DNA of 64,000 bases. Origin: an uncultured virus (IMG/VR IMGVR_UViG_3300003815_000001) (Duplodnaviria; Heunggongvirae; Uroviricota; Caudoviricetes). Under the pieces are notes generated by a model. It did not search any database and was not told the origin of the DNA. It saw only the letters and a list, made by a program, of their open reading frames with translations. The stretch is taken from IMG/VR virus record IMGVR_UViG_3300003815_000001, one strand, 5' to 3'. The number at the start of each line of letters is the position of its first letter. The first letter of the stretch is position 1. Both the position numbers and the translations under genes were made by a program. Of this stretch, positions 4,273 to 4,457 are shown in pieces.

Positions 4273-4307
4273 AAAAAAAATCCCCAGCTTTTTTAAGGCC
4301 AGGGATT
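4273..4307 (-). terminator. Rho-independent terminator
   Basis: AAUCCCUGGC...GCUGGGGAUU stem followed by a U8 tract on the minus strand. Confidence 0.8.
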
Positions 4308-4423
4308 AGACACCGAGGAGGTGTTTGATGAGACTAGTTACAATAATCGGGAGAGAATCGTAAGTATGAAGAAATACACGGTTAAGATGTACAACTTTAG
4401 TCTGTCAAGATTGCTCTTGATGC
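4273..4423 (-). ncRNA. Candidate ~150-nt small RNA with anti-SD and anti-AUG segments
   Basis: Bounded by a consensus promoter and an intrinsic terminator; 5' UCAAGA-GCAA-UCUUGA GNRA hairpin; CU-rich loops; no credible ORF on this strand. Confidence 0.6.
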
Positions 4424-4428
4424 TGCAC

Positions 4429-4457
4429 ACTATATCTAGTGGTAAAGGGCTTGTCAA
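4429..4457 (-). promoter_or_regulatory. Near-consensus sigma70 promoter TTGACA-17-TATAGT
   Basis: -35 at 4457-4452, -10 at 4434-4429. Confidence 0.8.

What the first reader, a model, noticed from the sequence alone, without database searches (positions are those of the whole stretch)
4273..4457. Stand-alone ~150-nt sRNA built from antisense copies of translation-start regions
Seen: TTGACA-17-TATAGT promoter and an intrinsic terminator define a short minus-strand unit with no credible ORF. It has a 5' GCAA tetraloop hairpin, a stem (AGACUA..GUUGUA with UGUAAC-UAGUCU) around a CU-rich loop, and an ACACC-UCCUC-GGUGU hairpin presenting anti-SD sequence. Its complement reads like gene starts: GAGGAGGtgtttgATGagactagttac and GGGAGAgaatcgtaagtATGaagaaa. 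The first matches the start of early gene 58433-58915 (tgATGagattagctac) at 14 of 16 nt, one difference being a G-U wobble. A match of that size can occur by chance in 64 kb, so it is only suggestive. Inference: a multi-target translational repressor RNA.
Basis: partly seen in the sequence, partly recalled or inferred. Interest (0 to 1): 0.72.

Follow-up and report, generated by a model that had tools for sequence, protein, structure and literature searches.

The report
Phage small RNA matched to neighbouring leader
An uncultured phage carries a short non-coding RNA gene whose middle part mirrors the start of the very next transcript, and in related phages the two sequences differ yet mostly still match each other, so it most likely controls the neighbouring group of genes rather than the distant gene first proposed.

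Summary
A near-consensus promoter (4457..4429), a 10-bp terminator with U8 (4307..4273) and the described hairpins bound a ~150-nt minus-strand unit with no credible ORF.

The best-supported target is not gene 58433. It is the extreme 5' end of the next transcript. A second promoter (4261..4233) starts a ~390-nt leader whose first ~93 nt form a long hairpin. The sRNA's middle patch (4382..4348) pairs with that hairpin's 5' arm (4224..4186).

I found 12 different sRNA/leader versions in viral and metagenome contigs, all with this layout. Own pairs bind better than swapped pairs: -31.6 vs -25.2 kcal/mol, 0 of 100,000 permutations. Close relatives differ almost only in the sRNA patch and the leader hairpin, 45 of 51 differences for L119/L121.

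The closest analogues in logic are P1/P7 c4 and P4 CI RNA. It is not a member of either family. Whether it acts in trans or in cis, whether it represses, and how, are inferred; no expression data exist. One hybrid locus and weak equilibrium energies count against a simple model.

The scan noted similar promoter-arm-terminator-promoter-arm modules on other DNA, but not this family. Downstream lies an unclassified, covariation-supported ~268-nt (about 230-270 nt in relatives) structured RNA core.

The parts
4429..4457 (-). P1, promoter of the small RNA (TTGACA-17-TATAGT)
   Evidence: 11 of 12. All 12 versions in relatives keep an exact TTGACA and a TAnnnT -10 at about 17 nt.
4273..4422 (-). Predicted ~150-nt small RNA. 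The start is inferred at 7 nt after the -10; the end is at U8.
   Evidence: The same four-part architecture appears in 12 of 12 versions.
4405..4420 (-). 5' hairpin with a GCAA loop. In 11 of 12 versions the loop is C/U-rich instead.
4348..4382 (-). Variable target-binding patch of the small RNA (ACCGUGUAUUUCUUCAUACUUACGAUUCUCUCCCG)
   Evidence: RNAduplex with the leader gives -37.1 kcal/mol. A 10-nt perfect inverted repeat, 4367-4376 / 4193-4202, was found independently.
4310..4324 (-). Second hairpin, ACACC-UCCUC-GGUGU, with a C/U-rich loop
   Evidence: The stem sequence differs among relatives while the pairing is kept (CGGUG/CACCG, CGCUG/CAGCG, GGUGC/GCACC).
4273..4307 (-). Intrinsic terminator: 10-bp stem, 9-nt loop, U8
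   Evidence: In relatives 4 of 12 terminator pairs show compensatory changes.
4233..4261 (-). P2, promoter of the downstream operon (TTGCAT-17-TATAGT)
   Evidence: Read from the sequence. It is kept as TTGCAw/TTGCTT/TTGATT plus TATTAT/TAAATT in all versions. One search did not list it.
4134..4226 (-). 5' domain of the P2 leader: a long irregular hairpin that starts at about +1. It has a purine-rich 5' arm, which holds the sRNA target (4224..4186), and a pyrimidine-rich 3' arm.
   Evidence: MFE -28.4, z -3.7. The same hairpin forms in 11 of 11 full versions (z -2.9 to -8.7) despite unrelated sequences.
3866..4133 (-). Conserved structured core of the leader (268 nt here), ending in CCACCCUUGGCAGAG. 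No Rfam family matches.
   Evidence: nhmmer E 2.7e-50. The consensus has 50 pairs and 96% of cells are paired. 13 pairs show compensatory change, against 7.1 +/- 1.4 in shuffles (0 of 500) and 0-4 when slid. No Rfam hit.
3589..3828 (-). First gene of the P2 operon (79 aa, no family), followed by a run of small genes of unknown function down to position 38
58437..58452 (+).
   Evidence: One search confirms the match. It ranks 4 of 100 start regions and 57 of 12,790 windows.

Best explanation
The unit is a phage gene for a small antisense RNA, and its main partner is the RNA made right next to it.

Shown by sequence comparison:
- A strong promoter (P1) and a terminator delimit a ~150-nt RNA.
- Directly after the terminator, a second promoter (P2) starts a ~390-nt untranslated leader.
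- The first ~93 nt of the leader fold into a long hairpin.
- The middle patch of the small RNA is complementary to the 5' arm of that hairpin, so it resembles the hairpin's own 3' arm.
- In relatives the three segments (sRNA patch, 5' arm, 3' arm) are hypervariable but stay matched. Promoters, flanking hairpins, terminator and the leader core are nearly invariant.

Inferred:
- The terminated small RNA acts in trans. It catches the 5' arm of the nascent P2 transcript before the 3' arm is made, so the hairpin cannot close.
- The freed C/U-rich, G-poor 3' arm then lowers expression of the downstream operon. It could do so by pairing with the purine-rich ribosome site of the first gene, by giving Rho a loading site, or because the sRNA-leader duplex is cut.
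- The hypervariability suggests selection for private specificities between competing relatives, as in heteroimmune phages and incompatible plasmids.
For: Layout. P1, sRNA, terminator, P2, hairpin, core and first gene occur in that order in the window and in all 12 distinct versions recovered.

Complementarity in the window:
- -37.1 kcal/mol, rank 1 of 100 start or leader regions.
- Second-best non-self site of 12,790 windows.
- A 10-nt perfect inverted repeat found blind.

Co-variation over 12 versions:
- Own pairs -31.6 vs swapped -25.2 +/- 3.8 kcal/mol; 0 of 100,000 permutations as good. The own sRNA is best for 6 of 12 leaders, and the own leader is best for 7 of 12 sRNAs.
- The longest complementary run is 11.8 vs 8.6 +/- 1.4 nt, 0 of 100,000.
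- With self-structure included, ddG is -4.1 vs -1.9 +/- 1.8, 1 of 100,000.

Differences between close relatives sit in the two patches:
- L119/L121: 45 of 51 differences in 103 of 515 columns.
- L014/L052: 17 of 20.
- L063/L080: 55 of 75.

Structure:
- The leader hairpin is kept in 11 of 11 versions, and 16-26 of the 25-39 sRNA-paired bases lie in its 5' arm.
- The sRNA shape is shared by 12 of 12 versions.
- The terminator stem shows compensatory changes.
- The 3' half of the hairpin is 20-34% C and 4-17% G.
Against: - No expression data; both RNA starts are predicted.
- Co-variation cannot tell trans pairing from cis pairing in a read-through transcript.
- One locus (L134) joins an L052-type sRNA patch to an L014-type leader, at -24.9 kcal/mol, the swapped level. 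It may be a recombinant or a chimeric assembly.
- L122 and L119 match their own partners poorly (ranks 6/6 and 5/3).
- At equilibrium the gain from binding a pre-folded hairpin is small. It is -0.9 kcal/mol in the window, whose own sRNA ranks last of 12 for its hairpin. So kinetic, co-transcriptional binding must be assumed.
- The predicted masking of the first gene's ribosome site by the freed 3' arm rises from 0.15 to 0.61 in 10 of 10 versions. Arms shuffled to the same composition give 0.48, so the effect is mostly composition.
- In the window-wide scan an unrelated site (53851-53900, -38.8) scores slightly better than the leader.
- The 12 versions come from about three clades, so they are not fully independent.
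Confidence: 0.6

Rival explanations
1. The pairing is cis only. In transcripts that start at P1 or further upstream and read through the terminator, the upstream arm pairs with the leader's 5' arm and changes the leader fold. Transcripts started at P2 lack that arm. This would be temporal control by choice of promoter, as in T4-type masks with a nested promoter. No free small RNA would be needed.
For: The order arm, promoter, arm is the T4-type layout; this lead came from earlier scan notes e1-5411627 and e1-5772062. Co-variation fits cis pairing as well as trans. The weak equilibrium gain for trans invasion favours a tethered partner.
Against: A strong, conserved terminator with compensatory stem changes lies between the arms in all versions. 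P1 is an exact TTGACA promoter dedicated to this short unit. The downstream arm is not the ribosome site of the regulated gene. Near-identical relatives differ sharply in just the matching patches. That is easier to explain by selection on a diffusible specificity than by neutral drift of a cis helix.
Confidence: 0.2
2. One reading: a multi-target translational repressor. Its anti-Shine-Dalgarno hairpin and flanking bases pair with the start regions of several phage or host genes, among them early gene 58433.
For: The 14-of-16 match at 58437-58452 is real. After the leader, 4 of the 5 best start regions belong to the plus-strand early block: 59755 at -32.9, 57726 at -29.7, 58433 at -26.0 and 56781 at -24.2. 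All pair with the ..CUCAUCAAACACCUCCUCGG.. part. A C/U-rich loop in the second hairpin is kept in relatives.
Against: These genes simply carry strong GAGGAGG sites, which any CCUCC loop will match. The UAGUCU part of the 58433 match is buried in a stem. The 58433 site ranks 57th window-wide. In most relatives the loop reads CCUCUCUCA, which matches the leader's own 5' GAGAG. Co-variation with such targets could not be tested, because the relatives' contigs lack those genes.
Confidence: 0.12
3. The pairing is the same, but the small RNA activates rather than represses. Opening the 5' hairpin would allow the leader core to fold or work, or would protect the transcript.
For: The sign of regulation is not fixed by any result here. 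The hairpin sequesters the very 5' end of the transcript in 11 of 11 versions.
Against: In all 10 versions modelled, blocking the 5' arm raises predicted pairing of the first gene's ribosome site, though the control is weak. The known analogues, c4 and P4 CI, are repressors (PMC12197685 and PMC4825925, passages read).
Confidence: 0.12
4. The region is read on the plus strand, and the 11-aa (4328) and 32-aa (4366) mini-ORFs are translated.
For: A 47-aa plus-strand ORF, 4321..4464, exists.
Against: No plus-strand promoter-like site was found between 3122 and 4621. The region is hypervariable in relatives, with indels of 1, 2 and 4 nt. The features that are conserved (promoter, hairpins, terminator) all read on the minus strand.
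Confidence: 0.02

Closest known systems
c4 antisense RNA of phages P1 and P7 (immI operon)
   Same: It is a small RNA encoded just upstream of, and in the same direction as, its target in the neighbouring transcript. Short complementary blocks are presented by a folded RNA. RNA and target differ together between related phages, giving private specificity (c4: PMC12197685, passages read).
   Different: c4 targets the ribosome-binding region of ant mRNA; here a ribosome site is present in the target of only 4 of 12 versions. By my recollection c4 is cut out of the operon transcript; this RNA has its own promoter and terminator. There is no sequence or structure match to any Rfam family. No temperate-phage functions were found.
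CI RNA of satellite phage P4 (seqB pairing with seqA and seqC)
   Same: An RNA from the leader region pairs with complementary leader sequences of the same operon to shut it off (PMC4825925, passage read).
   Different: CI arises by processing and causes premature termination in a lysogen. Here the RNA is a separate transcription unit, no intrinsic terminator lies downstream of the target, and the phage looks lytic.
Plasmid countertranscripts (ColE1 RNA I/RNA II, pT181 and pIP501 attenuation); recalled, no paper read
   Same: A folded small RNA must catch the nascent 5' part of a long structured RNA within a time window and thereby redirects its folding. Small changes create new specificities.
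   Different: Those RNAs are transcribed from the opposite strand of their target. Here the sRNA and its target lie in tandem on the same strand, and the complementarity comes from a separate imperfect copy.
T4-type translational masks with a nested promoter (lead from scan notes e1-5411627 and e1-5772062)
   Same: The order is upstream arm, promoter, downstream arm.
   Different: A strong terminator lies between the arms. The downstream arm is the 5' end of a ~390-nt leader, not the gene's ribosome site.

Membership tests
P1/P7 c4-type antisense RNA | The RNA gene lies upstream of its target, in the same orientation, in the same locus | tested here: met
   the same order in all 12 versions
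P1/P7 c4-type antisense RNA | Complementary blocks in RNA and target differ together between relatives | tested here: met
   (0 of 100,000 permutations). Exceptions: L134, L122
P1/P7 c4-type antisense RNA | The target covers the ribosome-binding site of a downstream ORF | tested here: not met
   SD plus start codon in the target arm in 4 of 12 versions, against 3.1 +/- 1.5 by composition. No co-variation with the first gene's start region
P1/P7 c4-type antisense RNA | The RNA is released by processing of the operon transcript (recalled feature) | tested here: not met
   It has its own consensus promoter and its own terminator. Processing itself cannot be tested here
P1/P7 c4-type antisense RNA | Sequence and structure homology to the known RNA | tested here: not met
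   No Rfam model matched apart from six weak chance-level hits to other families. That Rfam holds a c4 model is my recollection
P4 CI RNA | Pairs with complementary sequences in the leader of the operon it controls | tested here: met
P4 CI RNA | Pairing causes premature transcription termination | not testable with these tools
   No intrinsic terminator was seen between the target and the first gene. Rho-dependent termination cannot be predicted here
Overlapping cis-antisense RNAs (lambda OOP, P22 sar, ColE1 RNA I) | Transcribed from the strand opposite to the target, so fully complementary | tested here: not met
   RNA and target are on the same strand, 164 nt apart, with imperfect complementarity
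T4-type translational mask with nested promoter | The downstream arm holds the ribosome site of the regulated gene | tested here: not met
   The arm is the 5' end of a leader ~390 nt upstream of the gene
T4-type translational mask with nested promoter | A promoter lies between the two arms | tested here: met
   P2 at 4261..4233 is kept in all versions
Rfam RF02278 Betaproteobacteria toxic sRNA | Reaches the family's gathering score | tested here: not met
   23.7 bits against 50, E 0.032, covering only the second hairpin and the terminator
Type III toxin-antitoxin (ToxI-like RNA repeats before a terminator) | Tandem RNA repeats upstream of the terminator | tested here: not met
   No tandem repeat in 4273-4457

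The most novel reading that the evidence does not exclude
These apparently lytic freshwater phages carry an RNA-only specificity system. A hypervariable small RNA and the hypervariable 5' hairpin of the neighbouring leader are kept matched under diversifying selection. A phage can therefore silence, or time, the same operon in itself and in co-infecting relatives of the same type, while relatives of another type escape. This would be RNA-based heteroimmunity outside lysogeny. The invariant structured core (268 nt here, about 230-270 nt in relatives) that the hairpin gates would be a new class of phage regulatory RNA, for example a folding-dependent expression platform or an antitermination element.
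Probability: 0.3. Interest if true: 0.85.

Novelty: new variant of a known kind. Interest (0 to 1): 0.72.

Why it matters
Few phage small RNAs have a known target. The classic cases in which an RNA sets immunity specificity (P1/P7 c4, P4 CI) come from temperate coliphages. Here sequence comparison alone gives a testable RNA-RNA pair with natural specificity variants, in uncultured phages that show no sign of lysogeny.

It offers three things:
- a ready set of orthogonal sRNA/leader pairs for reporter tests;
- a case of three-way co-variation (sRNA, 5' arm, 3' arm) that points to a competition switch;
- an unclassified, covariation-supported structured RNA of about 240 nt whose function is open.

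It also shows that 'anti-SD-looking' phage sRNAs may be aimed at RNA structure rather than at ribosome sites.

Tried and rejected
Searches that found nothing:
- Annotated phage records, near and distant DNA modes: no match.
- The 202-aa neighbour as a protein: no match.
- The nearest held virus record, G001, does not cover the locus.
- Two scans of bacterial and archaeal genomes with core motifs: 0 hits. So there is no host and no prophage copy.
- Tyrosine integrase in five partial relatives' records: none. They are only 36-67% complete, so this is weak.
- The first paper search and the first paper look-up failed on a too-short term; the look-up was repeated with longer terms.

Chance matches: 27 of the 49 stretches that hold the 15-mer CCACCCTTGGCAGAG have no leader similarity and were dropped.

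Ideas tested and not supported:
- Leader mini-ORF as the target, c4-style: not enriched.
- The sRNA aimed at the first gene's start region: no own-versus-swapped signal.
- Sequence-specific masking of the ribosome site by the freed 3' arm: shuffled arms do nearly as well.
- A type III antitoxin-like repeat array: none.
- Retron or diversity-generating retroelement as the cause of hypervariability: no reverse transcriptase among the PHROG hits of 90 window ORFs. ORFs under 50 aa were not scanned.

Technical limits:
- A MAFFT/RNAalifold run on nine sRNAs recovered only the terminator, because the variable patch misaligns. Hairpins 1 and 2 rest on single-sequence folds.
- RNAduplex on long inputs gave diffuse duplexes that did not stand out from shuffles for L014 and L052. 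It was replaced by the restricted matrices.

Full report

Yes. On the minus strand a TTGACA-17-TATAGT promoter lies at 4457..4429. It matches 11 of 12 consensus positions and is the best of 16 promoter-like sites in 3000-6000.

About 150 nt downstream there is a 10-bp G+C-rich stem with a 9-nt loop, followed by eight U (4307..4273). The scan tool did not list it, because it only accepts loops of 3-8 nt.

The stretch folds to -38.1 kcal/mol, against -25.4 +/- 3.4 for 200 shuffles (z -3.77).

The only minus-strand ORF starts upstream of the predicted transcript start. The window holds no tRNA, and no Rfam family reaches its gathering score. The best weak hit is RF02278 at 23.7 of 50 bits.

The 14-of-16 match to 58437-58452 exists.

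**2. Context**

The window is a phage. It encodes terminase, portal, head and tail proteins, an Erf-like protein, RusA, a primase, a helicase, ArdA and several homing endonucleases. No integrase or repressor was seen among the 90 ORFs scanned.

Nearly all genes read on the minus strand. Upstream of the unit lies an HNH endonuclease gene (4617-5174), in a low-GC stretch (33%).

Downstream there is no gene for about 445 nt. The sequence there shows a second promoter, TTGCAT-17-TATAGT (4261..4233), then a ~390-nt leader, then a 79-aa gene (3828..3589) and a run of small genes without family matches.

**3. Relatives**

Annotated phage records hold nothing similar. Uncultured viral contigs do.

- Of 50 loci found through the 202-aa neighbour protein, two are identical to the window. 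One (L014) keeps the terminator and the leader but has an unalignable sRNA body.
- A 15-mer at the end of the leader (CCACCCTTGGCAGAG) gave 49 stretches. 22 have leader similarity: 16 strong and 6 distant. The other 27 are chance matches.
- A junction motif added L105.
- A metagenome scan gave 17 more loci.

After removing duplicates and truncated contigs, there are 12 distinct sRNA/leader versions: window, L014, L052, L122, L055, L063, L080, L099, L071, L105, L119 and L121. There is also one hybrid, L134.

All 12 share the same order:
- P1 with an exact TTGACA;
- an sRNA of 99-150 nt;
- a terminator with U6-8;
- P2;
- a hairpin of about 70-93 nt starting at about +1;
- a conserved core of about 230-270 nt;
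- a ribosome site and the first gene.

The first gene differs between versions.

The sRNAs share one shape in 12 of 12 single-sequence folds. It consists of a 5' hairpin, an open variable patch, a second hairpin with a C/U-rich loop, and the terminator. The 5' hairpin has a C/U-rich loop in 11 of 12; the window has GCAA.

**4. What the small RNA pairs with**

In every version the variable patch is complementary to the purine-rich 5' arm of the leader hairpin, with a different sequence each time. For example:
- window: GUAUUUCUUCAUACUUAC..AUUCUCUCCC against GGGGAGAAU..GUGGGUGUUGAAGAAAUA;
- L014: UCUAUUCCUCA against UGAGGAAUAGA;
- L080: a 17-nt run;
- L055: an 18-nt run.

Three tests compare own partners with swapped partners.

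| Test | Own pairs | Swapped pairs | Permutations as good |
|---|---|---|---|
| RNAduplex energy (kcal/mol) | -31.6 | -25.2 +/- 3.8 | 0 of 100,000 |
| Longest uninterrupted complementary run (nt) | 11.8 | 8.6 +/- 1.4 | 0 of 100,000 |
| Co-folding with self-structure (ddG, kcal/mol) | -4.1 | -1.9 +/- 1.8 | 1 of 100,000 |

- By energy, the own sRNA is best for 6 of 12 leaders, and the own leader is best for 7 of 12 sRNAs.
- By longest run, the own partner is strictly best in 5 of 12 and tied or best in 8 of 12.

Inside the window the leader site is rank 1 of 100 start or leader regions. It is the second-best non-self site of 12,790 windows. A blind repeat search returns the 10-nt core of the pairing, 4193-4202 / 4367-4376.

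**5. Where relatives differ**

Near-identical relatives differ almost only in the sRNA patch and in the leader hairpin.

| Pair | Differences inside the two patches | Patch columns of all aligned columns | Differences outside the patches |
|---|---|---|---|
| L119 / L121 | 45 of 51 | 103 of 515 | 6 in 412 columns |
| L014 / L052 | 17 of 20 | 105 of 403 | 3 in 298 columns |
| L063 / L080 | 55 of 75 | 107 of 507 | 20 in 400 columns |

Both arms of the hairpin change, yet the hairpin forms in 11 of 11 full versions (z -2.9 to -8.7). Most sRNA-paired bases lie in its 5' arm.

So three segments are kept mutually consistent: the sRNA patch, the 5' arm and the 3' arm. The sRNA patch resembles the 3' arm and would compete with it.

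**6. Results against a simple picture**

- L134 combines an L052-type patch with an L014-type leader. Its energy, -24.9 kcal/mol, is at the swapped level.
- L122 and L119 match their own partners poorly.
- With self-structure counted, the window's own ddG is only -0.9 kcal/mol, and its sRNA ranks last of 12 for its hairpin. Invasion of a finished hairpin is therefore not favoured. Binding to the nascent 5' arm has to be assumed, as in plasmid countertranscript systems (recalled).
- One unrelated site scores marginally better in the window-wide scan (53851-53900).
- The versions fall into about three clades.
- There are no expression data; no RNA run was listed.

**7. Mechanism: shown and inferred**

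Shown: selected complementarity between two tandem, separately promoted units, and a conserved 5' hairpin.

Inferred: trans action, repression, and the downstream step.

I tested three ideas for that step.

(a) Occlusion of a leader mini-ORF, as in c4. This is not general. A Shine-Dalgarno site plus a start codon occurs in 4 of 12 target arms, against 3.1 +/- 1.5 expected from composition.

(b) Direct pairing with the first gene's start region. There is no own-versus-swapped signal (-21.2 vs -21.1). In the window, though, the leader arm shares a 15-nt direct repeat with codons 4-8 of the first gene (3805-3819 / 4190-4204). L014 and L122 also show a parallel AUGUAUG / AUAUAUG difference in arm and start region.

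(c) Release of the C/U-rich 3' arm onto the first gene's ribosome site. Blocking the 5' arm raises the predicted probability of that pairing from 0.15 to 0.61 in 10 of 10 versions. Shuffled arms of the same composition reach 0.48. So composition explains most of the effect, not specific sequence.

The freed arm is also C-rich and G-poor (20-34% C, 4-17% G), which would suit Rho loading. This is an inference only.

I commit to repression by hairpin opening, at about 0.6. The downstream step stays open.

**8.

The general idea of a stand-alone antisense regulator is supported. The named target is not singled out (rank 4 of 100 and rank 57 of 12,790).

The CCUCCUC hairpin will match any strong GAGGAGG site. 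Four of the five best gene starts belong to the plus-strand early block. A side role therefore stays possible but untested.

**9. The leader core**

The conserved core (3866-4133) aligns well across 13 sequences. Its consensus has 50 pairs in 8 helices.
- 96% of cells are paired, against 90.2% in shuffles and 37-43% when the partners are slid.
- 13 pairs show compensatory change, against 7.1 +/- 1.4 in shuffles (0 of 500).

No Rfam family matches it in the window or in seven relatives.

A distant form occurs in a further group of six loci (L088 group; E about 1e-6 over the whole model). There it lies downstream of a cro-like helix-turn-helix gene and a long terminator-like hairpin. Its function is unknown.

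**10. Comparison with known systems**

In logic it is closest to P1/P7 c4 and to P4 CI.
- c4: a small RNA upstream of its target, with specificity set by co-varying complementary blocks (PMC12197685, passages read).
- P4 CI: pairing with leader sequences of its own operon (PMC4825925, passage read).

It is not a member of either family. It has its own promoter and terminator, the target is not a ribosome site, there is no homology, and there is no lysogeny context.

It is not an overlapping antisense RNA (same strand). It is not a T4-type mask (a terminator lies between the arms, and the target is not the gene's ribosome site).

Three full-text searches turned up no description of this module. 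This covers only the held library.

Earlier notes of this scan describe similar promoter-arm-terminator-promoter-arm modules on other DNA. None concerns this family.

**11. Verdict**

The finding is better described as a phage sRNA/leader specificity module: a new variant of the c4/CI kind, joined to an unclassified structured RNA.

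Noticed in passing
window 3866-4133 (-): A conserved structured RNA core of the leader, with 13 of 50 pairs showing compensatory change. No Rfam family matches and its function is unknown. It occurs once in the window.
   Followed up: partly
L088, L082, L086, L087, L092, L101 (about 1270-1515 in motif orientation): A distant form of the core (nhmmer E about 1e-6 over all 234 model positions). 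It lies downstream of a cro-like helix-turn-helix gene and a long hairpin ending in U6. No P1-sRNA unit of the window's type is present, and a 162-aa ORF overlaps the region.
   Followed up: no
L134 (sRNA and leader, about 490-700): A hybrid locus: the sRNA variable patch is of L052 type and the leader is of L014 type. It is either a natural recombinant with mismatched specificity or a chimeric metagenome assembly.
   Followed up: partly
window 3805-3819 and 4190-4204: A 15-nt direct repeat (14 of 15) between the leader's 5' arm and codons 4-8 of the first gene. Both read V-E-E-I-V in frame. This feature is specific to the window and is not seen across relatives.
   Followed up: partly
window 4617-5174 (-): An HNH endonuclease gene (phrog_3322) in a 33% GC stretch directly upstream of P1. 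It is absent at this place in the relatives, so it is probably a recent insertion. Further homing-endonuclease-like genes lie at 7889-8263, 12362-12853, 34616-35215 and 36795-37370.
   Followed up: no
window 55445-60200 (+): A block of small plus-strand genes that includes ArdA (56222-56707). Several have GAGGAGG ribosome sites, and these are the best non-leader matches to the sRNA's second hairpin.
   Followed up: partly
window 14372-19759 (-): A 1795-aa protein that matches only the C-terminal third of PHROG families of about 2800-3900 aa with unknown function (phrog_14770, phrog_616, phrog_10691).
   Followed up: no
window 53851-53900 (-): A site inside gene 53667-53999 gives the best non-self RNAduplex score with the sRNA (-38.8 kcal/mol). 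It was not examined further and is probably a purine-rich chance match.
   Followed up: no
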